From NCBI RefSeq assembly GCF_000615765.1, contig NZ_BAMI01000012.1, positions 4,009 through 44,008 of the forward strand: a DNA stretch of 40,000 nt, in the 5' to 3' direction. Within the stretch, counting starts at the first letter, position 1, and each line of letters opens with the position of its first letter. Of this stretch, positions 19,280 through 38,506 are shown piece by piece. This DNA is from Ligilactobacillus equi DSM 15833 = JCM 10991 (GTDB lineage: Bacteria; Bacillota; Bacilli; Lactobacillales; Lactobacillaceae). The notes beneath the pieces are model-generated. The model was given only the letters and a program-made list of their open reading frames with translations. It was not told the DNA's origin and searched no databases. The translations under genes and the position numbers were made by a program.

Positions 19280-19308
19280 ATTTTATAACGTTTCGTTATA
19301 AAAATCAA
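19280..19308 (-). promoter_or_regulatory. promoter with palindromic operator in the spacer (copy 1, upstream of helicase)
   Basis: Minus strand reads TTGATT (19308-19303), 17 nt, TAAAAT (19285-19280). The spacer is filled by the palindrome TATAACGTTTCGTTATA (19284-19300). Confidence 0.6.
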
Positions 19309-19571
19309 TACATTTGCTAGAGTGCTTTAGGAATATAGCTTTATAAAAAAATTTGCGTAAATAAAAACCGCTCCAAACTCCCAATTTCAAGCGGTTAAGT
19401 TTACCTATAAACGTGCCGTCGACCGACAGCTAAGAAGGATGGGTATTAGCGTACCTGTCCTTTTTCATTTGCCATTATAAGCTATATAGTACTTGCAAGT
19501 CAACACTAATAACTTATAGCAGCGGATGAACTAATAACGTCATAATATGAGGGTAAAAAACAATATAAGGG

Positions 19572-19606
19572 GAGAAGAACAATTTTCGGTGCAAATTGTT
19601 CTTCTC
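19572..19606. other. perfect 13-bp stem hairpin
   Basis: GAGAAGAACAATT (19572-19584) pairs with AATTGTTCTTCTC (19594-19606) around a 9-nt loop. There is no adjacent U-run, so its role is unclear. Confidence 0.5.
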
Positions 19607-19747
19607 ATCTTTCTAAAATATATAGATTTTTCGGAAAGATATAATTGATAAAAAAGAAAATGACTGTTTCAAAACATCTTCTACCTAGTTTTTACGAAAT
19701 TCGTAATTCAGATTTTACAAAACAATCTTTTTGTGCTTTCGTTGTTC

Positions 19748-19921
19748 TTATTTATTTTTTAAATACTTTAGCACTTCTTTGTTTTGGGCCAAATTTTTTT
19801 CTAAAACTCTGTTGAAGTCATCATCTAATTTTGCTCTTTGGTTATCAAAATGTTTTTTCTTCATTGGATCTGATAATTGTTCTTCCAGATATTTGTCAAA
19901 GTTTATGTGTTTGCTGTTCAT
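19748..19921 (-). CDS. 57-aa ORF resembling the N-terminal extension of HTH antitoxin-like proteins
   Basis: MNSKHINFDKYLEEQLSDPMKKKHFDNQRAKLDDDFNRVLEKNLAQNKEVLKYLKNK. The FDxYLxEQLxDP motif recalls the N-termini of XRE-type antitoxins, but no HTH follows. RBS is weak. Below the ORF-track size cut-off. Confidence 0.3.
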   Translation of the reverse strand: MNSKHINFDKYLEEQLSDPMKKKHFDNQRAKLDDDFNRVLEKNLAQNKEVLKYLKNK

Positions 19922-19993
19922 TTGATTCGTTTCTTTCTTTTTAATTTTCTTGTGGATATGATTTTGCTAAATTACATCCCACATGCTGCTCTC

Positions 19994-20023
19994 TACTGAT
20001 TATTACTGACTATTACTGAATAA
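19994..20023 (+). repeat. three tandem 10-bp repeats TACTGAYTAT
   Basis: TACTGATTAT / TACTGACTAT / TACTGAATAA at 19994-20023. A fourth exact copy of TACTGACTAT lies at 20116-20125. Confidence 0.7.
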
Positions 20024-20270
20024 TACCATATTTTACTCTTTCTCTGAAATTATTGTGCTTGCATTGCTGATGGATAAGCTCTTTCTTGTTCTGTACTACT
20101 TATGTTATGATATGTTACTGACTATTCTAATTAGTTATAGCTGCAAGAAAATAAGATGTTACAACCGCTTAAAATTAGGCGAATACGGTACTGGCTAAAA
20201 TATACTATGATATAAGTAGGATATGTTTACATTGAGATGTAAATGTGCCTAAAACACCATTACACTAAAA

Positions 20271-20313
20271 GCCAAGCATCCCCACTTTTTACGTTTCAGT
20301 TAGTATGCTTGGC
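20271..20313. repeat. GCCAAGCAT-stem hairpin element, copy 1
   Basis: GCCAAGCAT (20271-20279) pairs with ATGCTTGGC (20305-20313). Preceded by AAAA. The same stem sequence recurs at ~24.1, 25.1 and 28.9 kb. Confidence 0.6.
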
Positions 20314-20403
20314 GTATTTGATAATTTATGGCAAAAGCTTCATCAAAATTTCGGGTTAGCTGTGCGATGTACGGCCTTGTTTGTTTTGGTTAATTCTTTT
20401 TTG

Positions 20404-20437
20404 GTATCATTTAAACGGTCGCTGCTTTAAATGATAC
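20404..20437 (+). promoter_or_regulatory. perfect 12-bp inverted repeat upstream of the C gene (candidate C-box operator or terminator)
   Basis: GTATCATTTAAA (20404-20415), 10 nt, TTTAAATGATAC (20426-20437). It ends 24 nt before the C-protein ATG. Confidence 0.45.
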
Positions 20438-20461
20438 TTTTAATCGGTTGATATAGGAAAA

Positions 20462-20737
20462 ATGTTGAAGAATAATGAACACATGGAAAATTCAGAGTTA
20501 ATAAAAAGAAATATGTATACAATAGGTCAAACTGTAAAAAAATTAAGAAGGCAGAAAAAATGGTCACAAGAATATTTAAGTTTTATGTCCGGTCTAGATC
20601 GAACATATATTGGTGGACTAGAAAGAGGAGAAAGAAACGCGACTATAGGAACATTAACTACTATTTCTAAAGCTTTGAATATAACTTTATTTCAATTAGT
20701 AGAGGAAGCGTCTAAATATGAATCAGGAAATCATTAA
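20462..20737 (+). CDS. R-M controller (C) protein, XRE-family HTH
   Basis: 91 aa. WSQEYLSFMSGLDRTYIGGLERGERNATIGTLTTISKAL matches the C-protein signature (SQE-LA ... RTY-x-x-x-ERG-x-RN). Overlaps the downstream endonuclease gene by 20 nt. Confidence 0.8.
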   Translation: MLKNNEHMENSELIKRNMYTIGQTVKKLRRQKKWSQEYLSFMSGLDRTYIGGLERGERNATIGTLTTISKALNITLFQLVEEASKYESGNH

Positions 20738-21764
20738 TAATGCTAAGCGTATCCGTAATAATATCGAAAAAAGTCAAAAGACGATTTATGAAAAGACAAC
20801 ACCAAAGGATAAAGATTTGTGGTTAGGAGATCAAGAGCTAGAGTATTTGTTAAGGTCTTCTTTACTCGGTAAATCTTATGAAGGTCAGGCAAATAGAACT
20901 CGATCAAAGTCTATAAATCAAGATATTTGCAAGGCTATGGGCTATCCTGTTCCTAAGTCGTTCAAGAAGACTCATCCTCGGTTTGTATGTCAGAACTTTG
21001 ATAAGTATGCTCAGCAATCTAATAATCTTCAAATTTGGAATGAAGAAATCACACCAACTAGACGTTATTGTTTAATAATGTTGAACGATAAAAATGTAGT
21101 AGTTAACGTATTAATCTTATCTGGAAATACCTTACAGGAATTTGATTCAACTGGGACATTAACAACAAAATATCAAGCAAGTTTAATTAAAGACTATAAT
21201 AAGTCGACACTTCTAAGTACTCATGATACTGATAATATTCAAAATGCATTTGGTGAATTTAATACTCTTGTAACACAAGATCCTGCTTCTTTCCCTACTG
21301 CTAAAAGTATTATGAGTATTAAAAGTATATTTAACCGCTTAAAGCTATTGGAAGGTAAGAACTTTAATATCACAGGTAAAGAGAGAACGGATGGTAACAT
21401 TTTACAAGGAATAGTCTATAAACAATTGGGATATACACAATATAGAGAAAATGGACAATTACCAGATTTGATGAACCAATTATTAGAAATTAAAAGGCAA
21501 ACTTCAAGAACGATTGATTTAGGATTGTTTAAACCAGATGATCAAGAAGAACTTAATATTCCAGCTATTAATGGCTATGTTCCTAAAGTTGAAGATTTAC
21601 GTTACGCAATATTTTATTGCAGTATTCATGATACTCAAATGACAATTGATAAAATATTCTTAGTAACTGGGAAGGATTTTTTTAAATATTTTCATCTTTT
21701 CAGCGGAAATAAGCAGAATAAAAAAATTCAGTTGTCTTTAAAAAAAGAATATTGGAATCTATAG
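20718..21764 (+). CDS. type II restriction endonuclease (PD-(D/E)XK candidate)
   Basis: 348-aa ORF translationally overlapped with the C gene and convergent with a methyltransferase. Candidate catalytic motif LPDLMNQLLEIKRQ (PD ... E-x-K). Confidence 0.6.
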   Translation: MNQEIINNAKRIRNNIEKSQKTIYEKTTPKDKDLWLGDQELEYLLRSSLLGKSYEGQANRTRSKSINQDICKAMGYPVPKSFKKTHPRFVCQNFDKYAQQSNNLQIWNEEITPTRRYCLIMLNDKNVVVNVLILSGNTLQEFDSTGTLTTKYQASLIKDYNKSTLLSTHDTDNIQNAFGEFNTLVTQDPASFPTAKSIMSIKSIFNRLKLLEGKNFNITGKERTDGNILQGIVYKQLGYTQYRENGQLPDLMNQLLEIKRQTSRTIDLGLFKPDDQEELNIPAINGYVPKVEDLRYAIFYCSIHDTQMTIDKIFLVTGKDFFKYFHLFSGNKQNKKIQLSLKKEYWNL

Positions 21765-21818
21765 TTCTTCTTTTATTATAGCAGTATGAAGACTCCTTAA
21801 CTTGGTTTAGGTTTACAC

Positions 21819-21858
21819 AAAAAATACCGAGAACGTTTTTTAGTTCTCGGTATTTTTC
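21819..21858. terminator. bidirectional terminator between the convergent R and M genes
   Basis: 11-bp stem ATACCGAGAAC / GTTCTCGGTAT (21824-21834 / 21843-21853), flanked by an A-run and a T-run. Confidence 0.75.
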
Positions 21859-21876
21859 TCGATGAAAAATATGATT

Positions 21877-23559
21877 TTATTGCATATTAAAAGCCAGTTG
21901 TACTTCACTATTAATACTTTTTTCTAATTTCTTAGTATCATTTGGATTTTTGCATATCATTTTAACGAGTTTAATAATCTTTTGTGAATGTTTATTGTTG
22001 ATGTCCGGAAGTAAATAGTTTTTTACATATTGTGTTAAATAGCGTTTTCTACCACTATACAATACATTTTGAAACTTAATATTGTAGTATTTCTCCATAA
22101 TACTTGAATTTGCTACACCGGTTGCTAATAGAAGATAATTATTTGAAACATCATTTTTAGTTGTTAGCCAATAGCAATTTCCATCAACATAATACCCCTT
22201 GTCATCATAAACAAATTTAGCTTGCTGACTAATGTCCGGGAATATGACTTTATTATTGGCTAATTGTTCGGGTTGTTGCGGAACCCATATTTCGTACCAT
22301 TTACGTTTTGCCTTTTTTATATAAGATCTACCAGCTAATTGTTGTTTATGTTCTAATAGGTAGTTATATGCATGGGGATATTTGTAAAAGTCAATTGGGA
22401 TTCTTTTACCATTTTTTATTGTATGAGTATATAAAATAGTATTTAAATTATCGGGATGAGTTTGCCATCTCTCAATGGTTTTTGATGAGACCAAAGGATG
22501 TAAAACTTCTTTTTCGGGTCTTATATTGGTATCTAAATCTTTCCAATTTTTCTTTATAAATACGTTATCCGCAGTAGTTTTAATTCCTACATGGACATCA
22601 AAAACATCACCGAATTTTTTATGAGCATTTTTTTCTAATTTGGTAACCCATTCTTTTTCGGCAAAAGTTGCCATATTCCAAGGAGTATCTGAAACAGAAG
22701 CATCTAATAAGCCAGATGTTACCTTAAAAGAATGTCCTTTATATGAATGTATTCCATTTTTCTCTTTTAGTAGTGTCGATAATTTGTCTATAGAATCTGT
22801 AGACTTTGCACTTGAGGCTGATTCATATACCCTAGTAAATGGAACGCTACTGTTATCACTATGTTTTTTCTTTTTCCCAATAAAAATTGCAGGTAATACG
22901 GCTGCGGAAAATGGTTTAGTGTCACCTAAATCAATAATATTTAAAATCTTAAAGTTATCACTTAAGAAGTCTCGTATGTTTTTACCACTTTTATTCGTTA
23001 GATACTTATTAGAAGTTATAACGCATAAAATGCCGTTATCCTTTAAAGTGTTGGTCATAGCCTTAAGAAAGACATGATACATATCAACCTTTCCAGATAA
23101 ATTAAATAATTTTGCTAAGTGTTGAGACCTTTCAGCACCTAGAATTGATGTTCGAATATATGGAGGATTTGCGATTATTAAATCAATATTATTTATTTCA
23201 TTGTTGAGACTGTTAGGTTGATTGAATAAATTAACATTTTCAACATTTTCGATTAAAGAGAGGTAGTCGGCAGAGAAAAGTTTAAAATTGTTGTGATTTA
23301 GTTTCCCTTCTGCAATATGAATAGCTTTTTGGTCTATGTCAATACCATATCCTTGATAATCAATATCTTTAAAAACATTTTGAACAGCTAGAAGAAGATT
23401 ACCATCTCCACATGCTGGATCCAGTAATTTTAGCTTTTGGTTGCTGACACTGTCGGAGTTTTCTCTTAAAAAATAATATTTAAGCTGTTGTGCTATAAAT
23501 AAAGAAAGATCGTCAGGGGTATATTGAATACCATTTTTCTTTTCTTGAGTTAAAATCAT
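21877..23559 (-). CDS. N6-adenine DNA methyltransferase (gamma class, Eco57I/TaqI-like with C-terminal target-recognition domain)
   Basis: 560 aa. SAM-binding motif I LLDPACGDGNLL. Catalytic motif IV IIANPPY. Long C-terminal TRD. Confidence 0.85.
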   Translation of the reverse strand: MILTQEKKNGIQYTPDDLSLFIAQQLKYYFLRENSDSVSNQKLKLLDPACGDGNLLLAVQNVFKDIDYQGYGIDIDQKAIHIAEGKLNHNNFKLFSADYLSLIENVENVNLFNQPNSLNNEINNIDLIIANPPYIRTSILGAERSQHLAKLFNLSGKVDMYHVFLKAMTNTLKDNGILCVITSNKYLTNKSGKNIRDFLSDNFKILNIIDLGDTKPFSAAVLPAIFIGKKKKHSDNSSVPFTRVYESASSAKSTDSIDKLSTLLKEKNGIHSYKGHSFKVTSGLLDASVSDTPWNMATFAEKEWVTKLEKNAHKKFGDVFDVHVGIKTTADNVFIKKNWKDLDTNIRPEKEVLHPLVSSKTIERWQTHPDNLNTILYTHTIKNGKRIPIDFYKYPHAYNYLLEHKQQLAGRSYIKKAKRKWYEIWVPQQPEQLANNKVIFPDISQQAKFVYDDKGYYVDGNCYWLTTKNDVSNNYLLLATGVANSSIMEKYYNIKFQNVLYSGRKRYLTQYVKNYLLPDINNKHSQKIIKLVKMICKNPNDTKKLEKSINSEVQLAFNMQ

Positions 23560-23563
23560 AACT

Positions 23564-23793
23564 TCACTTCTTTCCGTTGAAATACATTGTTTTTTGTTGC
23601 TCTAATAAATGATTTAACGTGTCTAAATCATCAATATAATCATCCAGTTTGCCTGTATTGCCCGTTCTGCTTTTGTTCCAGGCTTGGGATGAACAAAGTT
23701 AAATGTGGCTCTTCTTAAAGCTAGGTATGATGTACGTTCTGGGTTACGTTTTTCCCAAGCACGAGATGCGTGTTTTTGAGATTCTTTAACCAA
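23564..23793 (-). pseudogene. small leader gene of the methyltransferase operon, apparently frameshifted
   Basis: TTG start at 23793, 6 nt after GGAGGG. It encodes (M)VKESQKHASRAWEKRNPERTSYLALRRATFNFVHPKPGTKAERAIQ... and stops at 23623. A second frame continues ...GKLDDYIDDLDTLNHLLEQQKTMYFNGKK* and ends at 23564, 4 nt before the MTase ATG. Confidence 0.35.
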
Positions 23794-23849: not shown

Positions 23850-23878
23850 ATTTTATAACGTTTCGTTATAAATGTCAA
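23850..23878 (-). promoter_or_regulatory. promoter with palindromic operator in the spacer (copy 2, upstream of MTase operon)
   Basis: Minus strand reads TTGACA (23878-23873), 17 nt, TAAAAT (23855-23850). The spacer holds TATAACGTTTCGTTATA (23854-23870). Confidence 0.65.
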
Positions 23879-24096
23879 TAGCTAAAAAGCGTGATAGTCC
23901 CTTATTTTTGGACATATCACGAATTAACAGCTGCTATACTCTAAACTGACGGCTTATCTATGCTCACATTATTAGTTATATAGGATTTTGCTAATAATTA
24001 CTCGAGTAGTTCAGAAGGTGATAGCAACTGTTACAACGATAGTAACATGATTGCTGTTATAGAGCAAGCATGCTACTATCGCATTTCTAATATTGC

Positions 24097-24138
24097 AAAA
24101 AGCCAAGCATCCCCTGTTTTGAGATATGCTTGGCTTTG
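24097..24138. repeat. GCCAAGCAT-stem hairpin element, copy 2 (terminator-like)
   Basis: AAAGCCAAGCAT (24099-24110) pairs with ATGCTTGGCTTT (24126-24137). Confidence 0.6.
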
Positions 24139-24457
24139 CGCTTGTATGCTTTTCTTGCATTGCTAACTTACATCGACAATCGCAACAAAAAGTAAGCAAA
24201 AAGACTCTTAATAACTTTGGCGTGATCTCATTGTACCGCTTGTAGTTGGTAATTACAAAGTTATACGTAAGTGCGTTGGAATAAGTATTACAGCTTAGGA
24301 AAACGTACAAAAGTTTGGGTGTCTTCTAAATTGGGCTGTGGTTTGGCTTCAACAGGTGTGGAAGTTGTAACGTTAGGTAAATCTGAATTCCGCCAAGAAA
24401 CATAAATAATGTAACTAGTGAAATCTTCAGATAGTTTAGTCTTATAACCGGCTCCAA

Positions 24458-24787
24458 TTAAGGAGCATTAAGCCCTTGCATGTAAGTCTTGATGGCCATA
24501 TCAATAGAAGGGGTAATCTTCTTGGTAGTCATGCCGTGTAAGACATCTAGTCCTTGGGAAGCTTCGTTATCGTCTTTAATCGTGGGTAAGCTTTTGAAAA
24601 AGTCAAAAATATTAATACGACAGTGGTGTTTGGCTTCTAGTTCCACAGATAGAACCAAGCGGCGATTAAAATATTCTTCAAATAATTCATGGTTATGAAT
24701 GAGGTAGCGTAAAGTAGCTTGAATTTTCGTATAATTTTCTAATTCAAAATCTTTTTGTAGTTGACGGATTTCGTCGGCAGTAAGCAT
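24458..24787 (-). CDS. hypothetical protein, possibly the 5' part of a frameshifted gene
   Basis: 109-aa ORF. After its stop, another frame stays open to 24288 (IGAGYKTKLSEDFTSYIIYVSWRNSDLPNVTTSTPVEAKPQPNLEDTQTFVRFPKL*). No family recognised. The 13-bp tandem repeats lie ~120 nt upstream. Confidence 0.35.
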   Translation of the reverse strand: MLTADEIRQLQKDFELENYTKIQATLRYLIHNHELFEEYFNRRLVLSVELEAKHHCRINIFDFFKSLPTIKDDNEASQGLDVLHGMTTKKITPSIDMAIKTYMQGLNAP

Positions 24788-24903
24788 ATTTTTCTTCCTT
24801 TCTAAGTCCTAAGTAGTCTTAATCTAATTAATCTAATTTTTAATAATAATTATAACTTTTGGCACGGAAAAAAGCACGTAAGAAAATATTGCTCAATGCT
24901 AAG

Positions 24904-24981
24904 TTACTTAATTTTGTTACTTAATTTTGTTACTTAATTTTGTTACTTAATTTTGTTACTTAATTTTGTTACTTAATTTTG
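24904..24981 (+). repeat. six perfect tandem copies of the 13-bp unit TTACTTAATTTTG (iteron or centromere-like)
   Basis: Exact copies at 24904, 24917, 24930, 24943, 24956 and 24969. Confidence 0.95.
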
Positions 24982-25041
24982 GTGGATAATGCCTCGAACT
25001 GTACTACTGGAACACTTCTACTCTGTCACTCTGACTAACTT

Positions 25042-25124
25042 AGCAAACCCAAACATCCCGATCACCAAGCAAATAATCAATATGTTTGAGTGCTTAAATG
25101 GATGGGATGCTTGGCTTATTTGCT
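25042..25124. repeat. GCCAAGCAT-family hairpin element, copy 3 (left arm degenerate)
   Basis: Right arm GGGATGCTTGGCTTATTTGCT (25104-25124) is identical over 21 nt to 28916-28936. The imperfect inverted copy AGCAAACCCAAACATCCC lies at 25042-25059. The element abuts the stop codon of the PTS gene. Confidence 0.55.
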
Positions 25125-26843
25125 ATTTTTGTGCATGAGGAATGGAAAAACCGTCAGTCATTCCAGTTGTTGATTCTTGTTCACGTTTTAAATACGCGTT
25201 GTAAACTTTTTCGCTGTCAGTAGCTAATCCCTGTTCTTTAGCCATTTCAGCTAAGAATTGTAATGCTTCATTTCTTGAATTAACTTTTACTCCTACTTTG
25301 ATATTTTGTTCTTCTAAAATATCAGCTGGGTTGAGCTTATTTGAAACGATATTTTCTTTTGCGTTACTTGTTTCTTTGTCATCCTCTTCAATAACTTCCC
25401 CTGTAAAGATGTCAACTCTTGGGCCATTTGCTCGAGCTTTTTTTACATCTGAGCCTGCGATTAAGGCAAGAAGTATCCCAGATGCTATTGCACCAATTAA
25501 AATGTAGATAACCCACATTAATGGGTGGTTAACTAACGGTAAGATAATAAAGCCACCATGAGGAGCTGGAACTTGAACTTTACCTACGTAAGATAGAGCT
25601 GCGGCGATTGCTGAACCTACCATAAATGCCGGAATATTCTTAATAGGATTCTTAGCTGCGAATGGAATAGCACCTTCAGTAATATGCGTTGATCCTAATA
25701 AAGCATTGACATAACCTGCTGAACGTTCAGACTTTGAGTATGCTTTTGGCTTGAGTAAAACTGCAACTGTTGTTGCCAAAGGAGGTGCAATACATGCTGC
25801 TGAAACCCCTGCCATAAAGTAGTAATTACCTTGTGCTAATAATGCTGTACCTGTTAAATAAGCTGCTTTATTGACTGGGCCACCAAAGTCAAAGGCACAC
25901 ATAGCGCCAACAATAATACCTAATAAGATAGGGCTTACATTTTGAACTGTTTTTAGCCAGTCCATTAAGCCTGTATTTAAAGCTGCCATTGGTGTATTAA
26001 TTAATGTCATCACCACTCCAGATAGTAATACAGAAAATACTGGAGTTAAGAAAATTGACTTCAAGCCCCTAAATTGCTTGTCAGGCAACCAAGTAAAGCA
26101 CATTTCTACAAGCTTTACGATGTAGGCTGCGATAAAACCACCAACTAATGCTCCTAAAAAGCCCGTACCGCCATTAAGTGCAATCATACCTGTAACTAGA
26201 CCCGCAACTAATCCGGCACGCTTAGATAACGATTCAGCAATAAATGCTGCGAATACAGGAGCCATTAAATTAATGGAAACACCACCGATTGATTTCAAGG
26301 TAGCTGCGATAAGGTTGTATTGGGCACTTTTTGGGTCATACGAGTAAATTCCCCAGAAAAATGAAATTGCTGTTAAAACACCACCTGCTACAACAAAAGG
26401 TAGCATGTGTGATACACCGTTATATGTGATACACCGTTCATCAAAGCTGTATACCATTGTTGACCAATGCTATCAGAGCTTTGATTTTTTGTGATGTTAG
26501 AGTTAGACTTTCCAACTAATTCTGGTTTCCAAATAGGTGCTGTAAAGGACTTATTAATTAGTCCTTCTGCATCTTTGATTGCTTTTGCAACTGGAACCTT
26601 AATTACATGTTTTCCTGCAAAACGATCTGGGTCTACGTCAATATCTGATGCAATAACAACTGCTTTTGCTTCCTTAATTTCTTCTTCTGTTAGAACGTGT
26701 TCAGTACCTGATTGACCGTGTGTTTCAATCTTTATTGTGTACCCTAATTTTTTTGCTGCTTCTTCTAGAGCTTCTTGTGCCATAAATGTGTGTGCTATAC
26801 CGGTAGCACAACCTGTTGCTCCAATAATGTCGTATTTTTGCAT
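25123..26843 (-). pseudogene. fruA: fructose-family PTS EIIB-EIIC-(EIIA) gene, frameshifted and 3'-truncated
   Basis: EIIB motif GATGCATGIAHTFMAQEAL. EIIC is a multi-TM region (LPFVVAGGVLTAISF...). A 17-bp tandem duplication (26405-26421 / 26422-26438) splits EIIB from EIIC; removing one copy restores ...ALMNGVSHMLPFVVAGG. The EIIA domain stops 3 residues after its active-site His (...GFSIPHAQK*). Confidence 0.8.
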
Positions 26844-26895
26844 ATTAATCGCCCTTTCTTTTAAAATGATTATTGCCAATAATCTTGTCTTCTGA

Positions 26896-27834
26896 TTACT
26901 TTGAGTAACAAGTGATTTTTACCTGTTTTTCAAGTTCTGAAACTGTTTTAAAATCAGTTAATCCTGTTGATTGAGCTGTATCGGAACCAGCCGCAATAGA
27001 ACGTTTAAAGGCTTCAAGTGTTGGCACTTTATTAATTATTTCCCCCATAAAAGTTCCTAACATTGTATCACCTGATCCCGCTGAATTTTGTAATTTGATT
27101 TTTGGAGCATTGCTTACATATACGTTGGTATTAGTGATTAAACAAGCACCTTTATCACCTAATGATAACAATACATTTCTTGCTCCTCTTTCTATCAAAT
27201 TTTGCCCATACTCGATAAGTATATCTAGATTCATATCATCCCTGTTTTTATCGTCGAACCATTCTAATAGTTCTTCTTCATTTGGCTTTATTAAGTAAGG
27301 ATTGTATTTCAGAATATCTAACACTTCTTTATAGGAGCTATCGATTACTAACCCACAATTAACTTCCCTACTTATTTTTGCTATATCTTCTAAATAACTA
27401 GGAGATATACCTTTTGAAAATGAACCTGAAACAATAATCCAATCATCACAAGTAACATGTTTTTTTAAATATGTTAGCAATTTTTCTTGTAAGTTTTTAG
27501 GGATAGTTGGCCCAGGGTTAACCTCTTTAAATTCTTCCCCTGTTGAAACGACTTTCGTGAATACGTTGATTCTTGTTGGTTGTTCTACACGCCAGAATTT
27601 GTTAGTAATTCCTTTTGATTTTAAACTGTCTGAAATAAAATCTAGTGTGAATCCACCGCCAATGCCTAAAGCAATATTATCAACATTTAGTTTTTTTAAA
27701 ATAATAGAAACATTTACTCCTTTTCCATTGGGTTGAATATCGCAAAAATTAGTTCTATTTACCACTCCATTCCTCAAAGTCTCTGTTTCGATTGCCAAAT
27801 CTATCGCAGGGTTAAGCGTTATGGTGTAAATCAT
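26896..27834 (-). CDS. fruK: 1-phosphofructokinase-like sugar kinase (PfkB family)
   Basis: 313 aa from the ATG at 27834 after an AAGGAGG RBS. The track ORF is extended upstream by 84 spurious codons. N-terminal MIYTITLNPAIDL and GKGVNVS, C-terminal NSAGSGDTMLG, which are PfkB/FruK signatures. Confidence 0.8.
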   Translation of the reverse strand: MIYTITLNPAIDLAIETETLRNGVVNRTNFCDIQPNGKGVNVSIILKKLNVDNIALGIGGGFTLDFISDSLKSKGITNKFWRVEQPTRINVFTKVVSTGEEFKEVNPGPTIPKNLQEKLLTYLKKHVTCDDWIIVSGSFSKGISPSYLEDIAKISREVNCGLVIDSSYKEVLDILKYNPYLIKPNEEELLEWFDDKNRDDMNLDILIEYGQNLIERGARNVLLSLGDKGACLITNTNVYVSNAPKIKLQNSAGSGDTMLGTFMGEIINKVPTLEAFKRSIAAGSDTAQSTGLTDFKTVSELEKQVKITCYSK

Positions 27835-27991
27835 GAGGACCCCTCCTTTTCTTCGTTTTAAATACAAACAAAACCAATCGTTTTTATTTACGCTTTTATT
27901 ATAATGAATTATAATAGATTTAGGTTTTCTAAATGCTAATAAAATTCGAAAAATATTTTCTGAATTTCCATTCAAAAATCGGGGTCTTATC

Positions 27992-28754
27992 ATGGGAAAA
28001 ATCAAAAATAAATTAACAGAAACAGAGAAATATCTTTGGCACTTAATTAGTGATAATCCGACAGAAATAATTAAAATGTCTATCACTCAACTTAGTGAGT
28101 ATAGTAACGTTTCTCCGGCTACTATTGTGAGGACTTTAAAGAAAAAAGGCTATTCGGGATATACCTCTTATCGGGAAAAATTAAGAACAGAATGTAGCGA
28201 AAATTATCGTAATTTTAGGGTACTTGAGGAAGCGGATAAAAGTATTCAAAATGTGATTAGAAAAAAACGAAATTGAGCTTACGAATACTCTTAAAAATTT
28301 GAATTATGCTGATATTGAAGATGGTATTAAATTGTTACAAAATGCAGATAGAGCTTATATTTTCTCTAGAGGTATGTCTGAACTTACAGCAAGAAGTCTA
28401 ACAACAAAACTACAATTGGCAGGTAAATATACCGAATCATATTCAGATCCTAATATCATAACTGAGTTATCGAAGAATATTACTTTAGATGCAGTTGTTA
28501 TATTTATTTCTCTTAACGGTGAAACAAGTGAGTTAGTCGAAGCTTCTTGTATTTTGGAAGAAAAAAACATCCCCACTATTATATTTACTACTAATGAAAA
28601 TTCTTTACTTATACCCGCAAGTACAGTTAGTTTTATTGGCTATCAGTCGATAGATGACTTCTTTAGCAATTACGAAGTTAAGTCAAGACTACCTTTGGAT
28701 ATTATGACCAGAATATTTGCTGATTCTTATCTCGTTAGAAATAACAATCATTAA
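27992..28754 (+). pseudogene. RpiR-family regulator (HTH_6 + SIS domains) split by a frameshift
   Basis: The N-terminal HTH (ITQLSEYSNVSPATIVRTLKKKGYSGY) ends at the stop at 28274-28276. The SIS domain continues in another frame (ORF 28299-28754). The frames meet at an A7 run (28261-28267). Deleting one A gives ...QNVIRKNEIELTNTLKNLNYADIEDG... Confidence 0.75.
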
Positions 28755-28891
28755 GAAAAATTATGTTACAATCAGTAATTTTAAATTAAAGATAACTATG
28801 GATATCTGAATTCAAGCTATGGTTATTAATAAGAAAAAGTCTTGCAATAATCATAATAATTGTAATTATTGCAATCTGCCAAACATATAAA

Positions 28892-29172: not shown

Positions 29173-30162
29173 TCAACTTAATTGTGGCAATGGGTCTCTT
29201 CTTTGCCATTCTTGGGGAAAACCAAGTTCACTTAGAATTTTATCAAGTGATACTGAGTGTACTTTATTTTCTAAATTGCGAAAGCGTTTTCTCACAGTGT
29301 TATTTAATATTGCAAATTCATTATTACTAATAAAACATTCTAAAATAATCATTGCACAATAAACAGTTCTTCTTGTTTTATCATCATCCCTTATAATCGA
29401 ATCATGAATATCATGTAAATAAGGATAATAAATAGCAGTTTTTATACTATTAAAATTGAGTAGTACGTCGTCGTGTGCACATGCATTTCGAAGATCTTTT
29501 AATACTTCAATAAACGAAATCATTATATTGGGCGAAAATTGCCCATGTTCAGAATCTTTGTTCTCTCTTTTTATAAAGTTATAGCAATCATGAGCTATTT
29601 TGTTTTGTAAATCTGTTGGCAATACCTTAATTAACGTTAGTATGTCGCCAAATTCTAAAAATTCAACCATTACCCACAATGGTACAAAATTATATTTTTC
29701 TCGGTAGTGATTTATTGCGTTATTCTTATACCTTGATTTATTTGTTATGGTTCTTGAAATTTTTGTTATGATGTAAGATATATCTAAACTTTTTTCATGA
29801 TTAAACGAACTGACATCAAGGTATGCTTCTTTTTTCCCTTGATAATATTCCTCAAAGCGATAGGCTAAAATGGATTTCAAATGATGTTCAGCAAGTAGCA
29901 AAGAGTCCAAGAGTGTTTTTCGCAGTTCTCTGTTAAAAAAATATAAACTAATAATTTCGTCAAATGTTGCTCCACTAATGTATTTATCACTATCGGAATC
30001 CATAAAAATTTTACTATATCCATTTATAATACTGTAATAATTATTCGTTAGCAGATAAGCTTGTGCTTTGGCTTTATCTGAAAATTTTAACCCTCGAGAT
30101 TCTAATAATTTAATTTGTTCTTCTACACTTTTAAATACTTTATTCAAAAAAAATACCTCCAT
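29173..30162 (-). CDS. AbiD/AbiF-type abortive infection protein (Abi_2 family, HEPN RNase motif)
   Basis: 329 aa. N-terminal KSVEEQIKLLESRGLKFSDKAKAQAYLLTNNYYSIINGY matches the Abi_2 N-terminal signature. HEPN R-x4-H motif in KDLRNACAHDDVLL. GAGG RBS. Confidence 0.8.
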   Translation of the reverse strand: MEVFFLNKVFKSVEEQIKLLESRGLKFSDKAKAQAYLLTNNYYSIINGYSKIFMDSDSDKYISGATFDEIISLYFFNRELRKTLLDSLLLAEHHLKSILAYRFEEYYQGKKEAYLDVSSFNHEKSLDISYIITKISRTITNKSRYKNNAINHYREKYNFVPLWVMVEFLEFGDILTLIKVLPTDLQNKIAHDCYNFIKRENKDSEHGQFSPNIMISFIEVLKDLRNACAHDDVLLNFNSIKTAIYYPYLHDIHDSIIRDDDKTRRTVYCAMIILECFISNNEFAILNNTVRKRFRNLENKVHSVSLDKILSELGFPQEWQRRDPLPQLS

Positions 30163-30569: not shown

Positions 30570-30974
30570 TTAATGTATTGATTTATATTCTGTTGTTTTT
30601 TTTTCAGCATATTCCTCTGCTTTTTTATATGCATCCTCTTCCCAATTACTTATATCATTTTGATAAAATAAGTCTATTGCTTCTCCTGGATATATATACC
30701 CCTCTTCTTCTTGTCTTTTTAACGAATTAAATATTTCGTCTTCATCTTTTTTTATCATCTCTTTTAACGTTTCTTTTTTACTTTTGTTATTGTTAATCTT
30801 TTCTTTGATAATACTAATTACTGTATCGTAATCATATTTTGATGGTCTTGATATTCCATTTGAAGGTTGAATATCTTTAAACCATTCTCTTAGTGTTCTA
30901 ACTTTTTTAGGATAATTAATTTCAGATAACCACTTTGAAATTTCTTCTAAAGTGTATTCTTTCTTTATTTCCAT
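30570..30974 (-). CDS. hypothetical protein
   Basis: 134-aa ORF, very AT-rich and lysine/glutamate-rich. No motif recognised. Confidence 0.4.
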   Translation of the reverse strand: MEIKKEYTLEEISKWLSEINYPKKVRTLREWFKDIQPSNGISRPSKYDYDTVISIIKEKINNNKSKKETLKEMIKKDEDEIFNSLKRQEEEGYIYPGEAIDLFYQNDISNWEEDAYKKAEEYAEKKTTEYKSIH

Positions 30975-32086: not shown

Positions 32087-32706
32087 TTATTGACTTATTG
32101 ATTTAAAACTTATTTTTGTTGTCACATCATTTAGGGAATACGTGACAGTTGGTCTAGCAGGTATATTATCAATTCTTACAGAATAATCACCATAATCCCA
32201 AATTGGAGTTTGAGTAGCTCCAATAGTAGGTTCACCACTTCTCCATCTATCAGCTGTTTTTAAAAGGACAAAGTTACCTTCTGAATTTCTTTTAACTGTA
32301 TACGGACTGTTTAGCGCATTACTATTTATTAAATTTGAATACGTACTATCCCTGTATCTTTAACTGTTACAAATAAATAATCTGATGGATTTGATTGAAT
32401 AATATCATCCGTTAATTTTTTTGAGCCTTCATTATTTTGCAATTCAATTATATCTCTATGATTACTATCTTCACCATAAATATAAGTTTGCGTGTAAACG
32501 TTAGGAAGAGGTGCATCAGGTTTCATATAAACGACGGTATCATGAAAACCGTATTCAAAATTTGGGTCTTGGTATTCTGGAGGAAGGTTATTACACGATA
32601 ATTCCATCTTTTTTACAGTAACTGTGTCGTTAGACACATTATAATGCCAATAAATTTTTGTATTAACAGTAGTATTTAAATATCCACCATTTGTGAAACG
32701 GCGTCA
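32087..32706 (-). pseudogene. remnant of a secreted/surface protein gene (no start, frameshifted)
   Basis: The track ORF 32329-32637 is open further upstream to ~32706 without a start codon. Downstream, another frame continues (NSNALNSPYTVKRNSEGNFVLLKTADRWRSGEPTIGATQTPIWDYGDYSVRIDNIPARPTVTYSLNDVTTKISFKSISQ*) to 32087. Confidence 0.3.
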
Positions 32707-34832: not shown

Positions 34833-34870
34833 AAAAAGGCGAGGTCTATTTCATGACCTCACCTTTTATT
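34833..34870. terminator. terminator downstream of the LPXTG gene
   Basis: Stem AAAGGCGAGGTC / GACCTCACCTTT (34835-34846 / 34855-34866, one mismatch), flanked by an A-run and a T-run. Confidence 0.65.
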
Positions 34871-34879
34871 TTTGGTATA

Positions 34880-37800
34880 TTAGTCTCTCTTACGACGACC
34901 AGTCCAAGCAAGACCAATCATAGAACTTAAGGCAACTAAACTAGCACCTAAAGTTACACCAAAGCTGTCTTTTTCACCAGTTTGTGGTAAAGCACGTTGG
35001 CTACGGTTAGTGTTATCGCTAACTGTCTTCATGTTTACTTGCTTGCCTGTTGTGGCAGAGATAATTGCACCTGTCTTAGGATCGACCTTAACACCTTTAA
35101 CTACTTTGGCATTTTGATCGTATACAACACCATCTTTAGCAAACCAGTTGCTGATGATTGTTCCATCTTCGTTCTTAACAAAGTTTCCTTCGACGTGTAA
35201 CCCACTCTTCTTAGCAAGTTCCTTAGCTTGTTCAGCTTGCTTTTTAGCTAATTCTTGAGCTTTAGCTTCTTCTTCAGCTTTTTGAATTGCTAATAAGCTA
35301 TCAAGGACACGTTGTGCCTTAGTTAATTGGTCCTTAGCATTGTCTAAAGCCTTCTTCTTTTCATCAAGAGTTTCCTTTGAATTATCAAAGGCTTGTTGTG
35401 CTTCAGTCACATTTGTTTGTGCTTGTTCTAATGCCTTTTGAGCATCTGCAAGCAATTGTGGAGCATTCTTTAAGTCAGAAAGCTTTGCTTGTAAGTCTTT
35501 CAACTTAGCTTGTTCGTCTGCCAATACCTTTTGAGCTTTAGTTACTTCACCTTGCTTGTTATCAAGGTTCTTTTGAGCTTGATCTAACGCTTGTTGAGCT
35601 TTCACTTGTTCGGCTTTTAAGTTTTCTAATGTAGCCTTGTCGTCTGCTAACTTAGTCTTAGCTTCGTTTAAGGCTTGTACCTTTTGTTTTGCTACATCTC
35701 CTGCGTTATCTAATGCTTTTTGTGCCTTAGATACTTCTTCTTTGTCCTTAGCTACATCAGTTGTAAGACTCGCTACCTTACCGCTTAATTCAGATAACTT
35801 AGTCTTGTTGTTTGCTAATTCTTTTTGTGCATCTTCTAAGTTTGTCTTAGCTTGGCTAAGTTCCTTTTGTGCTTTATTTAAGCTATCTTGTGCCATATCA
35901 CTTGCAACATTCTTTGCGCTTTGATCTTGGTACAACTTAGTTAATTCGCTTTGAGCATCTGATAATGCTTTTTGTGCATTTTCTAAGTTCTTTGCCTTTT
36001 CTTGTGCATTAGCCGTAAATGAATTTAATGTATCAGTAGCTTGCTTCAAGGTATCGTTAGCTTTATTCAAGGAGTCTTGTGCATCCTTTTCTGCAGCTGT
36101 AGCAGTAGCTAAGTTAGTTGATGCTACAGCTGCGTTATTCTTAGCTGTGTCATTTGCACTCTTTGCTGAATCGTATGCAGCTTGTGCATCCTTTTGAGTT
36201 TGAGACGCTTGGTTTGCTTTTGTTTGAGCATTAGTCAAGTCTGACTTTTGTTGTCCTAAAGTAGTAGACAAGTCTTGCTTTTGTTGTAACAACTTATCGT
36301 TGGAGTTACTGTTACTGTATGGAGTTGTATTGTATTTTGAAAGTTTACTTTCATTTACATCCAATGTTGGTGCGTTGTATTTTACATCATCATAAACATA
36401 TGCAGTGTTAAAATGCAAAGTTCCATCACTAGTCATAGTAACAGCAAATTGTTGTGGATTAGAATAAGTACCTGCAAACACGGCATTTGGTCCCACTGTA
36501 CGAGAACCAGTAATATCTGATGTATGTCCATATTTTGATTCTGCATCGTTGAATAACATCATGGTGATACCGTCGTATACACCTTTTTTCAAGTTATCTA
36601 ATGTTGTTGTATACTCTTTGTTCCTATCCATTGGATGATCATTAACATCATAAACATATCCGTAAACAAGATCTTCACCTATAGTAATTCCATATTCATT
36701 TCCAACCTTAACTAAGGCTTTTTTATCATGTCCAAACATAAGTCCGTCATCGATAACCATCCCATCATCCATATATGCTTGATCCACAGCTTTACCAAAA
36801 AGAATGCTTGCATCTGATGTTACTAAATCGTATGCTCCGACTTGGCGACGAATTGGGTTCAACAATGAAGCGGCGAATAAAGATAACTCCTTAATCGTTT
36901 CATTATCTAGTAAACCATTTTTAGCAATGTGAACGATTTTTGCTTGGTCAGCTTTGTTAGACTTAAATGTATTAAGACCATTGGATTCTTGCCAAGTTGA
37001 TGAAAGGTATCCTTTAGAAATTTGATCTAATTTGTCAAAATTTGATAGCCGTTGTTCACCTAAATGCTTTTTCAATTCATCAATGTAACCATTAGGTAAA
37101 ACAATAGTATTAACGTTGCCTAAAGTGTCGTTAACGTTGTCCAGTTCTTTTTGCGTGTTAGCAACTGCATCCTTAGCATTTTGTAATTCACGTTGAGCTT
37201 GTGAACTAGCATTTACTGCATTGTCTAAGGTTTTCTTTACGCTATCTAATTGCTTAGTTGTATCTGTCAATGCTTGTTGAGCTTTGTCATTTGCTACCTT
37301 AGCGCTAGATAAGTTTGCCTTAGCTACGTTTAAAGCATTATTCTTAGATGTTACATCATTTTTAGCATCTGCAACTGCTTTTTGCGCATCCGCAATGCCA
37401 GTATTATTAACAGCATTTTGAGCATCTGTCACGGCTTGCTTTGCGTTAGATACAACATTTTCTTGGGCTTTGGCAGCGTTATCAGCTTGTGCCTTTTCTG
37501 ACTTGGCTGTGTCCGCTTTGGCTTGTAAGGAGTCTGCCTTAGCTTGTGCATTAGAAACACTCTTTTGCGCATCGTTGACCTTTGTTTGAGTAGAATCAAC
37601 TTTCTTTTGAGTTTCAGTTACAGATTGTTCAGTAGAAGCCAATTCCCTTTCGTCAGAGACTTGCTTATTTTTAGCGTTTTCTAAGTTTTGTTGTGCTTTA
37701 GTAACACCGGCGTTGTCTACTTCCTTTTGAGCAGAGTCAACTGTACTTTGGTCTTTAGACACAACATTTTCTTGCGCTTTAACGTTATCTGTGGCTTTAG

Positions 37801-38272
37801 CAAGAGATACCTGTGCATCTTCTACGCCTTTTTGTGCGTGAACAACATTATCTTGAGCCTGATTAACTTGTGCTTTTGCAGAATCAACTACTTTTTCTTG
37901 ATTTTCAATCGCACTTTCTTGCTTAGTAAGATTTTCAGGAGTAGCTTCCTTTGCATTATCTTGAGCGGAAGTTAAATTGTTCTTTGCGTCATTTAAGGAA
38001 TTTGTTGCTTGGTTAAGCGTAGTAGCGTCTTTGTCATTTACGACTTGAGCTTGGTTAACCTGTGTTTGAACATCGCTAACATTCTTTTGAGCACTGTTAA
38101 CATTTACTTGTGCTTGTTCAACTGTTTCAGCTGAAGTAACTTGAGTAGTTTTGTTTTGATTATTTGTAGGGACGGAAGTTACTTCATCAGCTTGTGCCGT
38201 TGTGGCAACCCCTGCACCTACGGTAGCTAATGCTACTGCAACAGTAGCGGTCTTTTTAGAAACTTTATTCAT
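34880..38272 (-). CDS. LPXTG-anchored coiled-coil surface protein with central globular domain (PrgA/Sec10 surface-exclusion-like architecture)
   Basis: 1130 aa. Signal peptide MNKVSKKTATVAVALATVGAGVATTAQA. Long Q/A/K/N-rich coiled-coil arms on both sides of a ~250-aa globular insert (aa ~395-650). C-terminal LPQTGE + hydrophobic segment + RRKRD sortase signal. Confidence 0.85.
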   Translation of the reverse strand: MNKVSKKTATVAVALATVGAGVATTAQADEVTSVPTNNQNKTTQVTSAETVEQAQVNVNSAQKNVSDVQTQVNQAQVVNDKDATTLNQATNSLNDAKNNLTSAQDNAKEATPENLTKQESAIENQEKVVDSAKAQVNQAQDNVVHAQKGVEDAQVSLAKATDNVKAQENVVSKDQSTVDSAQKEVDNAGVTKAQQNLENAKNKQVSDERELASTEQSVTETQKKVDSTQTKVNDAQKSVSNAQAKADSLQAKADTAKSEKAQADNAAKAQENVVSNAKQAVTDAQNAVNNTGIADAQKAVADAKNDVTSKNNALNVAKANLSSAKVANDKAQQALTDTTKQLDSVKKTLDNAVNASSQAQRELQNAKDAVANTQKELDNVNDTLGNVNTIVLPNGYIDELKKHLGEQRLSNFDKLDQISKGYLSSTWQESNGLNTFKSNKADQAKIVHIAKNGLLDNETIKELSLFAASLLNPIRRQVGAYDLVTSDASILFGKAVDQAYMDDGMVIDDGLMFGHDKKALVKVGNEYGITIGEDLVYGYVYDVNDHPMDRNKEYTTTLDNLKKGVYDGITMMLFNDAESKYGHTSDITGSRTVGPNAVFAGTYSNPQQFAVTMTSDGTLHFNTAYVYDDVKYNAPTLDVNESKLSKYNTTPYSNSNSNDKLLQQKQDLSTTLGQQKSDLTNAQTKANQASQTQKDAQAAYDSAKSANDTAKNNAAVASTNLATATAAEKDAQDSLNKANDTLKQATDTLNSFTANAQEKAKNLENAQKALSDAQSELTKLYQDQSAKNVASDMAQDSLNKAQKELSQAKTNLEDAQKELANNKTKLSELSGKVASLTTDVAKDKEEVSKAQKALDNAGDVAKQKVQALNEAKTKLADDKATLENLKAEQVKAQQALDQAQKNLDNKQGEVTKAQKVLADEQAKLKDLQAKLSDLKNAPQLLADAQKALEQAQTNVTEAQQAFDNSKETLDEKKKALDNAKDQLTKAQRVLDSLLAIQKAEEEAKAQELAKKQAEQAKELAKKSGLHVEGNFVKNEDGTIISNWFAKDGVVYDQNAKVVKGVKVDPKTGAIISATTGKQVNMKTVSDNTNRSQRALPQTGEKDSFGVTLGASLVALSSMIGLAWTGRRKRD

Positions 38273-38477
38273 AAAAGCATCCTCCTATAAGATATAATTT
38301 ACTTTCTTTATTTTTATTTACAAGTTAATTGTAGCTCAATTTCCGCTACAAGTCAAGGATTTTAAAAAGGAATTCAAAATAAAATTTAGATTACATTTCA
38401 AAATTCTATTTAAGACAAACTTGCGAGAAGATTCTATGTTTTTTTGCGTTAGGAAAAATCATTTTTCCTACACTTAT

Positions 38478-38506
38478 ATTATATAACGTTTCGTTATATA
38501 GAACAA
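38478..38506 (-). promoter_or_regulatory. promoter with palindromic operator in the spacer (copy 3, upstream of the surface protein gene)
   Basis: Minus strand reads TTGTTC (38506-38501), 17 nt, TATAAT (38483-38478). The spacer holds TATAACGTTTCGTTATA (38482-38498). Confidence 0.6.

What the first reader, a model, noticed from the sequence alone, without database searches (positions are those of the whole stretch)
19280..38506. Three unrelated operons share one promoter design with the identical palindrome TATAACGTTTCGTTATA in the 17-nt spacer
Seen on the minus strand: TTGATT-17-TAAAAT (19308-19280) lies ~260 nt upstream of the helicase. TTGACA-17-TAAAAT (23878-23850) lies upstream of the small ORF-methyltransferase operon. 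TTGTTC-17-TATAAT (38506-38478) lies ~200 nt upstream of the LPXTG surface-protein gene. In all three the 17-bp palindrome (ATAACG-N3-CGTTAT core) starts at the fifth base of the plus-strand -10 hexamer, so the geometry is identical (19284-19300, 23854-23870, 38482-38498). Flanking sequence is otherwise unrelated, so this is not a simple segmental duplication. Inference: one dimeric repressor occludes RNA polymerase at all three promoters. That would define an element-wide regulon coupling a helicase, DNA methylation and a surface or exclusion protein, as in plasmid transfer or establishment control circuits. Candidate regulators in the window are the AbrB-domain protein next to copy 3 and the HTH proteins at 3298-4828.
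Basis: partly seen in the sequence, partly recalled or inferred. Interest (0 to 1): 0.7.

Follow-up and report, generated by a model that had tools for sequence, protein, structure and literature searches.

The report
Aca13-like repressor operator at three promoters
Three separate promoters on a Ligilactobacillus equi mobile element carry the same 17-bp palindrome, and its most likely binder is a small repressor encoded just downstream of one of them, a relative of the anti-CRISPR-associated regulator Aca13, which here appears to control a DNA methylase, a helicase and a surface-exclusion protein rather than anti-CRISPR genes.

Summary
TATAACGAAACGTTATA occurs exactly three times, in the same orientation and the same register inside TTGnnn-17-TAnAAT promoters. 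It is far above chance. It is not a common genomic motif.

One dimeric repressor occluding RNA polymerase is well supported.

The best candidate is the small ORF directly after copy 2. It is 76 aa in three other assemblies of the strain. In the window a 1-nt deletion splits it. Its family is homologous to Aca13, the non-HTH C-terminal domain of AcrIIA32. Aca13 has been shown experimentally to bind inverted repeats between -35 and -10 of acr promoters.

Family members in Lactobacillaceae prophages and plasmids sit next to the same promoter cassette. The arms TATAAC(G)/(C)GTTATA are conserved and the centres vary. One L. salivarius linear plasmid carries at least 14 such promoters.

The most likely mechanism is an autorepressed burst-then-shut-off circuit acting on entry into a new cell. 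It would control the methylase of a C-protein-regulated restriction-modification (R-M) system, a UvrD-like helicase and a PrgA-type surface-exclusion protein.

This is a new variant of a known kind. Binding itself is inferred, not shown.

The parts
19284..19300 (-). Operator copy 1 (TATAACGAAACGTTATA), about -27 to -11 of the helicase promoter
19280..19308 (-). Promoter 1: TTGATT-17-TAAAAT
16646..19012 (-). UvrD/PcrA-like SF1 helicase (788 aa, GajB-like), 268-nt leader with no convincing small ORF
23854..23870 (-). Operator copy 2, in the promoter of the aca13-like/MTase operon (the autoregulatory site)
23850..23878 (-). Promoter 2: TTGACA-17-TAAAAT (11 of 12 consensus matches)
23564..23793 (-). 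Aca13-family small protein gene, the proposed repressor. It is 76 aa in GCA_001435735.1 and in two Logan assemblies. In the window a 1-nt deletion (GGG to GG near 23645) truncates it to the 56-aa ORF at 23623-23793.
21877..23559 (-). Type II N6-adenine DNA methyltransferase (560 aa). It starts 4 nt after the aca13-like stop codon.
20462..21764 (+). Convergent C-protein (HTH_3, 20462-20737) and type II restriction endonuclease (20718-21764). They complete the R-M system. The C gene has its own, different inverted repeat at 20404-20437.
38482..38498 (-). Operator copy 3. Here the dyad extends to TATATAACG-AAA-CGTTATATA.
38478..38506 (-). Promoter 3: TTGTTC-17-TATAAT. The -10 hexamer plus downstream sequence, TATAATATAAGTGTA, is shared with the L. 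salivarius and S. uberis acr-aca13 promoters.
34880..38272 (-). SEC10/PgrA-type surface-exclusion protein (1130 aa, LPQTG sorting signal)
38534..38558 (-). Intrinsic terminator ending the upstream AbrB-domain gene. It insulates promoter 3 from that gene.

Best explanation
The 17-bp palindrome is the operator of a small, all-helical, non-HTH dimeric repressor of the Aca13 family. The repressor is encoded as the first gene of the operon behind copy 2 (window 23564-23793, minus strand). The operator spans roughly -27 to -11, filling the spacer and overlapping the -10 hexamer. A bound dimer should therefore exclude sigma-A RNA polymerase from three otherwise strong promoters. When the element enters a naive cell no repressor is present and all three promoters fire. 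The methylase is made early and protects the incoming DNA, before the C-protein-delayed endonuclease appears. The helicase and the surface-exclusion protein are made at the same time. The repressor then accumulates, represses its own promoter and the other two, and expression falls to maintenance level. What is shown: the sites, their geometry, the homology, and the gene-operator co-occurrence. What is inferred: binding, repression and the timing.
For: (1) Homology. A profile of the small-protein family hits PDB 8ye6_B (AcrIIA32) at residues 90-141, its Aca13 domain, with E 1.1e-4. hhalign against a stand-alone Aca13-like protein of S. thermophilus phage P5641 gives 96.9% probability, E 1.6e-10. 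The AF2 model has four helices, pLDDT 93, and no HTH.

(2) Experimental precedent. PMC12282945 shows that Aca13 lacks an HTH. It binds an inverted repeat between -35 and -10 of acr promoters, shown by EMSA, reporter assays and mutants. It represses promoters both upstream and downstream of its own gene.

(3) Homologous promoter. The S. uberis acr-aca13 promoters read TTGACT-17-TATAAT-ATAAGTGTA. They share the -10 hexamer and downstream block with copy 3 and with the L. salivarius cassettes.

(4) Co-occurrence. The family gene lies in or next to an operon driven by a promoter with TATAAC(G)-N3-6-(C)GTTATA in its spacer in the following places:
- phage phiPYB5 and five IMG/VR relatives;
- the L. 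salivarius linear plasmid;
- an L. reuteri plasmid;
- L. mucosae;
- an ardA island, L090-092;
- two further prophages.
As a control, 120 metagenome loci carry the palindrome plus WAAT. Only 3 of them have TTG at the -35 position. Two of those 3 carry the family ORF, and 0 of the other 117 do.

(5) Signature of a dimer site. The arms are conserved while the centre varies (AAA, GGG, ATT, GGGGT, ACGTC). The -35 hexamers vary while the 17-mer does not. The motif also occurs outside promoter context, at the RBS.

(6) Covariation. The divergent AKDNYEK...KATYWNRKS subfamily goes with 6-nt-centre operators. Streptococcal Aca13 goes with a spacer whose only sizeable palindrome is GTACATGTAC.
Against: - There is no direct binding or expression data for this protein or these promoters.
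- Homology to Aca13 is remote: about 26% identity, with a 14-residue insertion.
- Of the four residues found critical in AcrIIA32 (K92, W99, R107, S111), only W99 is conserved. That fits a changed specificity, but it is not proof.
- No known anti-CRISPR gene is under these promoters, so the 'Aca' label is functional by analogy only.
- In the window sequence itself the gene is frameshifted. If that deletion is real in that culture, the regulon would be derepressed.
- One paralogue in the same genome (L087) has only a half-site upstream.
- The rest of the L. equi genome could not be scanned. Other copies, or another regulator, may exist there.
Confidence: 0.75

Rival explanations
1. A different element-encoded regulator binds the palindrome: the AbrB-domain protein next to copy 3, or the wHTH proteins at 3298-4828.
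For: The AbrB/MazE domain is present and the gene lies directly upstream of copy 3. The 252-aa wHTH protein has a 27%-identical homologue on the L. salivarius plasmid.
Against: The AbrB gene ends in its own terminator. It has no homologue on the L. salivarius plasmid and none of relevance in PLSDB. The wHTH protein has no homologue in any phage record, although phiPYB5-type prophages carry the same operator. Neither gene sits behind an operator-bearing promoter.
Confidence: 0.06
2. A host chromosomal transcription factor conserved in Lactobacillaceae binds the site, and mobile elements have plugged into a host regulon.
For: Closely related operators occur in elements of Ligilactobacillus and Limosilactobacillus. 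No element-independent test was possible.
Against: The exact 17-mer is absent from every Lactobacillaceae representative genome. The arms, the centre length and the centre sequence differ between elements in step with the linked small-protein subfamily. The motif matches no regulator motif I can recall for lactobacilli; that is my own knowledge, not a test.
Confidence: 0.08
3. The C-protein of the adjacent R-M system binds the palindrome at the M promoter, as C.Esp1396I does at its M operator. The other two copies would then be co-opted.
For: A C-protein is present and the M and C-R genes are convergent. C-protein repression of M promoters is known; this is from my own knowledge of Esp1396I.
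Against: The C gene is preceded by a different 12-bp-arm inverted repeat, and nothing resembling the 17-mer lies there. phiPYB5, L. salivarius and the other elements with this operator have no C-protein or R-M system beside it.
Confidence: 0.04
4. No regulator is involved. The identity reflects the spread of a strong promoter cassette by recombination, or a methylation-sensitive site, since AACGTT lies inside the 17-mer.
For: The -10 hexamer and downstream block are shared across genera, so the cassette does move. The 17-mer contains AACGTT, and an adenine methylase is encoded in the regulon.
Against: The -35 hexamers and flanks have diverged while the 17-mer is invariant. Dyad arms are conserved with free centres. 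The phiPYB5 operator lacks AACGTT. Copies also occur at ribosome-binding sites, outside any promoter.
Confidence: 0.05

Closest known systems
Aca13, the C-terminal domain of AcrIIA32, and stand-alone Aca13 of Streptococcus prophages (PMC12282945; PDB 8YE6)
   Same: The protein is homologous, with a non-HTH helical fold. The operator is an inverted repeat placed in the 17-bp spacer against the -10 hexamer. One repressor serves several promoters. The promoter -10 hexamer and downstream block are shared. The prophage location is the same, between the lysin and integrase genes.
   Different: Identity is about 26%, with a 14-residue insertion (an extra helix) that the streptococcal proteins lack. 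Three of the four critical residues are not conserved. The gene is first in its operon rather than downstream of, or fused to, an acr gene. The targets are a methylase, a helicase and a surface-exclusion protein spread over 19 kb of a plasmid-like element. Aca13 had been described only in Streptococcus.
HTH-type Aca repressors (Aca1, Aca2 and others) of acr operons
   Same: The logic is the same: a strong early promoter with a palindromic operator and negative autoregulation, giving a burst followed by shut-off. The second operator copy at the RBS in the L. salivarius and phiPYB5 cassettes recalls the dual DNA/RNA control reported for Aca2 (cited in PMC12282945).
   Different: The fold is unrelated. 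RNA binding is not tested here. The L. equi sites have no second copy.
Global plasmid repressors: KorA/KorB of RK2, ArdK of IncN/IncW plasmids, omega of pSM19035 (from my own knowledge)
   Same: One small dimeric repressor has identical operators at several dispersed promoters and so coordinates establishment, anti-restriction and maintenance genes.
   Different: There is no sequence or fold relationship. The operator types differ: omega uses heptad repeats and KorB acts at a distance.
R-M establishment control by C-proteins and by self-repressing methylases of the SsoII/EcoRII type (from my own knowledge)
   Same: The methylase promoter is autorepressed, so the methylase is made early and then throttled, while a C-protein delays the endonuclease.
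   Different: Here the repressor is a separate Aca13-like protein co-transcribed with M, not an N-terminal HTH of M or the C-protein. It also controls two genes unrelated to R-M.

Membership tests
Aca13 (anti-CRISPR-associated protein family 13) | Sequence homology to Aca13 / the AcrIIA32 C-terminal domain | tested here: met
   Profile against PDB 8ye6_B residues 90-141, E 1.1e-4. hhalign against phage P5641 gp29, 96.9% probability, E 1.6e-10.
Aca13 (anti-CRISPR-associated protein family 13) | Small all-helical DNA-binding protein without a canonical HTH | tested here: met
   AF2 model with helices at 4-16, 18-34, 41-48 and 50-73, pLDDT 93. No Pfam or NCBIfam HTH hit. This is a prediction only. 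Foldseek against the PDB found no match.
Aca13 (anti-CRISPR-associated protein family 13) | [quoted passage not shown] | tested here: met
   All three window sites, and the sites in phiPYB5, L. salivarius, L095, L096 and L090-092.
Aca13 (anti-CRISPR-associated protein family 13) | Autoregulation: the gene lies in an operon driven by an operator-bearing promoter | tested here: met
   Copy 2 lies about 57 nt upstream of the gene. This shows the arrangement only; repression was not measured.
Aca13 (anti-CRISPR-associated protein family 13) | Residues critical for DNA binding in AcrIIA32 (K92, W99, R107, S111) are conserved | tested here: not met
   In the alignment only W99 (W13 here) is conserved. 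K92, R107 and S111 align with Q6, T21 and A25. The operator sequence also differs, so a change in specificity is expected.
Aca13 (anti-CRISPR-associated protein family 13) | Genetic association with an anti-CRISPR gene in the same locus | tested here: inconclusive
   The genes under the three promoters are a type II methylase, a UvrD-like helicase and a PgrA surface-exclusion protein. There are no plausible small ORFs in the leaders. No Acr library was available, and unknown Acrs cannot be excluded.
Aca13 (anti-CRISPR-associated protein family 13) | Sequence-specific binding to the inverted repeat and repression of transcription | not testable with these tools
   This needs EMSA, footprinting or reporter assays.
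C-protein-controlled type II R-M system | An HTH_3 controller gene overlapping or preceding the endonuclease gene, a separate methylase, and a palindromic C-box upstream of the controller gene | tested here: met
   PADLOC hits: Control_protein 7.7e-17, REase_II 3e-107, MTase_II 2e-180. Inverted repeat at 20404-20437. This applies to the R-M module, not to the 17-mer.

The most novel reading that the evidence does not exclude
Aca13-family repressors would be more than anti-CRISPR controllers. They would be master 'entry-burst' regulators of whole establishment and anti-defence regulons on Lactobacillaceae plasmids and prophages. In L. equi one such repressor would couple R-M methylation, a UvrD-like helicase and surface exclusion. 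In an L. salivarius linear megaplasmid it would command at least 14 promoters of unknown genes near both telomeres, through a dual operator (one in the promoter, one at the RBS) that may act on both DNA and RNA. On this reading the operator marks a large set of undiscovered counter-defence genes, possibly including the helicase.
Probability: 0.35. Interest if true: 0.75.

Novelty: new variant of a known kind. Interest (0 to 1): 0.55.

Why it matters
Aca13 has so far been described only in Streptococcus phages and only as a controller of anti-CRISPR genes. If this reading holds, three things follow.

1. It would show how a mobile element uses one tiny repressor to time a methylase against its C-protein-delayed endonuclease, together with a helicase and entry exclusion.

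2. It would extend the Aca13 family to Lactobacillaceae plasmids and prophages, with a defined and different operator: TATAAC(G)-N3-6-(C)GTTATA against the -10 hexamer.

3. It would supply a sequence tag for finding early or anti-defence genes in food and probiotic lactobacilli. Dozens of hypothetical genes on the L. salivarius linear plasmid and an ardA island already carry the tag.

The compact promoter-operator-repressor set could also serve as a genetic tool in lactobacilli.

Tried and rejected
- Near-identity search of 17-40 kb against PLSDB: no match. The element itself is not in the plasmid collection.
- Exact 17-mer in GTDB representatives and in IMG/VR: only chance-level single hits. 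The source genome is not the species representative, so the rest of the L. equi genome could not be scanned.
- AbrB-domain protein as regulator: no co-occurrence with the operator.
- wHTH 252-aa protein as regulator: absent from all phage records.
- C-protein as regulator: it has its own, different inverted repeat.
- phiPYB5 CI/Cro switch region: no related motif, so the phage repressor is not the binder.
- Second operator copies or degenerate sites in the window: none.
- Small ORFs (candidate Acrs) in the 268-nt and 206-nt leaders: nothing convincing.
- Rfam scan of the window: only the HEARO RNA of IscB.
- Pfam, NCBIfam and PADLOC searches for the small protein: no family. PHROGs gave only a weak phrog_2277 hit of unknown function.
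- Foldseek of the AF2 model against the PDB: no significant match. Sequence-profile search was what revealed Aca13.
- Aca13 inverted-repeat sequences: they are not in the paper's text and no supplements are held. I read the S. uberis 700P1 locus directly instead.
- L076 (an 84%-identical homologue): the contig ends 81 nt upstream of the gene, so its promoter is not visible.

Full report
**1. Observation**

The 17-mer occurs exactly at 19284-19300, 23854-23870 and 38482-38498. No other site in the window comes within three mismatches. The chance expectation is 0.41, and 0 of 100 shuffles reached the observed count.

On the minus strand all three read TATAACGAAACGTTATA. Each begins five bases after a TTG and overlaps the first two bases of a TAAAAT or TATAAT hexamer, leaving a 17-nt spacer.

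Outside TTG, the 17-mer and the -10 hexamer, the three regions do not align. Flexible searches find no weaker copies.

The exact 17-mer is not a common motif. It gives 55 single hits in unrelated taxa across 596 Gb of representative genomes, none in Lactobacillaceae. It gives eight single hits in IMG/VR.

**2. Source and sequence quality**

The window belongs to Ligilactobacillus equi DSM 15833 = JCM 10991, contig AZFH01000155.1, 46 kb.

The window differs from that assembly only by single-base homopolymer indels. These split several ORFs. I therefore read the ORFs from the NCBI copy as well (L001, L002, L067).

**3. Gene content around the three sites**

- Copy 1 drives a UvrD/PcrA-like helicase that also matches GajB models.
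- Copy 2 drives a small ORF followed, 4 nt later, by a type II adenine methylase. A C-protein gene and a type II endonuclease gene converge on it, so this is a complete C-R-M system.
- Copy 3 drives a 1130-aa SEC10/PgrA surface-exclusion protein with an LPQTG signal. An intrinsic terminator upstream insulates it from the AbrB-domain gene.

**4. The lead**

In three other assemblies of the strain the small ORF after copy 2 encodes 76 aa. The window carries a 1-nt deletion in it.

tblastn found homologues on an L. salivarius plasmid, on L. reuteri plasmids and in phage phiPYB5. Reading upstream of those homologues showed the same promoter:

- phiPYB5 has TTGCAT-ta-TATAACGGGGCGTTATA-TAAT in the region between the endolysin and integrase genes. 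The arms are identical to the window's and the centre is GGG. A second copy lies just before the homologue's RBS.
- Five IMG/VR prophages repeat this arrangement. In one of them the promoter directly precedes the small gene.
- The L. salivarius ZSA5 linear plasmid (166.6 kb) has at least 14 promoters reading TTGnnn-ta-TATAGAGTAACGTTATA-TAAT. All lie in the terminal ~22 kb of both ends. The -35 hexamers and flanks vary while the spacer motif is invariant. Ten of these promoters have a second motif copy 69-77 bp downstream, at the RBS, outside any promoter.
- An ardA-bearing island (L090-092) has the small gene preceded by TATAACTATAAAGTTATA. It is followed by five copies of TATAACCACACAGTTATA, four of them inside TTGAC(T/A)-17/18-TATAAT promoters.
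- Further variants are TATAACggggtGTTATA, ATATAACacgtcGTTATAT and TGTAACGGGGCGTTATA.

Conserved arms, free centres, variable -35 hexamers and occurrence outside promoters are the signature of a dimeric protein-binding site.

**5. Control**

Only three have TTG at the -35 position. Two of those three carry a family ORF downstream on the same strand. None of the other 117 does.

So the palindrome in promoter geometry and the small gene travel together.

**6. Identity of the small protein**

Pfam, NCBIfam and PADLOC give nothing. PHROGs gives only a weak hit of unknown function.

A profile of 49 family members hits PDB 8ye6 chain B (AcrIIA32) over residues 90-141, with E 1.1e-4. hhalign against a stand-alone homologue from S. 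thermophilus phage P5641 gives 96.9% probability and E 1.6e-10.

PMC12282945 (Nucleic Acids Res 2025) identifies that region as the Aca13 domain. It reports the following:
- the domain lacks an HTH;
- the domain was modelled (AlphaFold 3) as a dimer on the IR DNA, and EMSA showed the domain binds one of two inverted repeats lying between -35 and -10 of acr promoters;
- it represses promoters on both sides of its own gene;
- binding depends on K92, W99, R107 and S111.

The AF2 model of the L. equi protein is four helices with pLDDT 93.

I read the S. uberis 700P1 copy of the AcrIIA32 locus directly. Both promoters are GTGTTGACT-ttttaacgtacatgtac-TATAAT-ATAAGTGTA. The -10 hexamer and the following nine bases are the same as in window copy 3 and in the L. 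salivarius cassettes. The whole promoter cassette is therefore homologous. Only the operator differs.

**7. Differences from Aca13**

- Identity is about 26%.
- The Lactobacillaceae proteins carry a 14-residue insertion, which forms helix 3.
- Only W99 of the four critical residues is conserved.
- The operator sequence is different.
- The regulated genes are not known anti-CRISPRs.

The family is modest in size: 175 representatives at 50% identity with E at or below 1e-3, out of 1.84 billion proteins. Some are fusions.

**8. Mechanism**

Shown: the site geometry, the homology and the co-occurrence.

Inferred:
- A dimer bound at about -27 to -11 excludes RNA polymerase.
- The gene behind copy 2 makes the circuit autoregulatory.
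- On entry into a naive cell the three promoters fire and are then shut down.

For the R-M system this would give early methylase while the C-protein delays the endonuclease. Why a helicase and a surface-exclusion protein share the circuit is unknown. An 'early establishment' role is my inference from the behaviour of Aca systems.

**9. Rivals**

- The AbrB-domain protein and the wHTH proteins do not co-occur with the operator.
- The C-protein has its own inverted repeat at 20404-20437.
- The phiPYB5 CI/Cro region lacks the motif.
- A host factor is not excluded. It is disfavoured because the operator varies with the linked protein subfamily, and because the motif is absent from representative Lactobacillaceae genomes.
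- A regulator-free promoter cassette is disfavoured by the conservation pattern and by the RBS-proximal copies.

**10. Verdict**

The system is a divergent, previously undescribed branch of the Aca13 repressor-operator family. It acts on a three-promoter regulon of a plasmid-like element. This is a new variant of a known kind.

Confidence that the Aca13-like protein is the binder is about 0.75. Interest is 0.55.

Noticed in passing
window 6866-13370 (+): A type I-E Cascade operon (cse1, cse2, cas7, cas5, cas6e) is followed by a 13-repeat CRISPR array at 12602-13370 (repeat GTGTTCCCTACGTATGTAGGGGTAATCC). There is no cas3, cas1 or cas2 anywhere on the 46-kb contig. The same genome has a complete chromosomal I-E locus with a different repeat (L087). 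The element-borne Cascade may be an interference-only system that borrows the host Cas3.
   Followed up: partly
window 14703-16391 (+): An IscB (RRXRR + HNH, 446 aa) is preceded by its HEARO/omega RNA (Rfam RF02033, 91 bits). It is 72% identical to an IscB on the L. salivarius linear plasmid.
   Followed up: partly
window 20404-20437: A 12-bp-arm inverted repeat, GTATCATTTAAA-N10-TTTAAATGATAC, lies just upstream of the C-protein gene. It is probably the C-box of the R-M system and is unrelated to the 17-mer.
   Followed up: no
window about 23645 and elsewhere (for example 28299-28754, 30570-30974, 32329-32637, 24011-24787): The window differs from GCA_001435735.1 and from two Logan assemblies of the same strain by single-base homopolymer indels that split ORFs. 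The split ORFs include the proposed repressor gene, an RpiR regulator and several hypothetical genes. These are probably sequencing errors in the window's source assembly.
   Followed up: yes
L072-L075 (NZ_CP123973.1, L. salivarius ZSA5 linear plasmid), 8.6-21.8 kb and 150-166 kb: At least 14 near-identical promoter cassettes lie in the terminal ~22 kb of both ends of the plasmid, on the minus strand at the left end and the plus strand at the right end. Ten of them have a second operator copy 69-77 bp downstream at the RBS, with a short GC hairpin plus a T-run in between. All the genes they drive are annotated as hypothetical.
   Followed up: partly
L090 4250-4700 (also L091, L092): Four tandem operator-bearing promoters within about 450 bp lie between an Aca13-family gene and an ardA anti-restriction gene cluster. 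This looks like a leading-region island.
   Followed up: no
L087 9700-10000 (L. equi AZFH01000198.1): A second Aca13-family paralogue (P0031) lies beside a prophage integrase. It abuts the last repeat of the chromosomal type I-E CRISPR array and has only a TATAAC half-site upstream.
   Followed up: no
window 24900-28760: An RpiR-family regulator, a PfkB kinase and PTS IIB/IIC/IIA sugar genes sit between the R-M module and an AbiD gene (29173-30162). The element therefore mixes metabolic cargo with defence genes.
   Followed up: no
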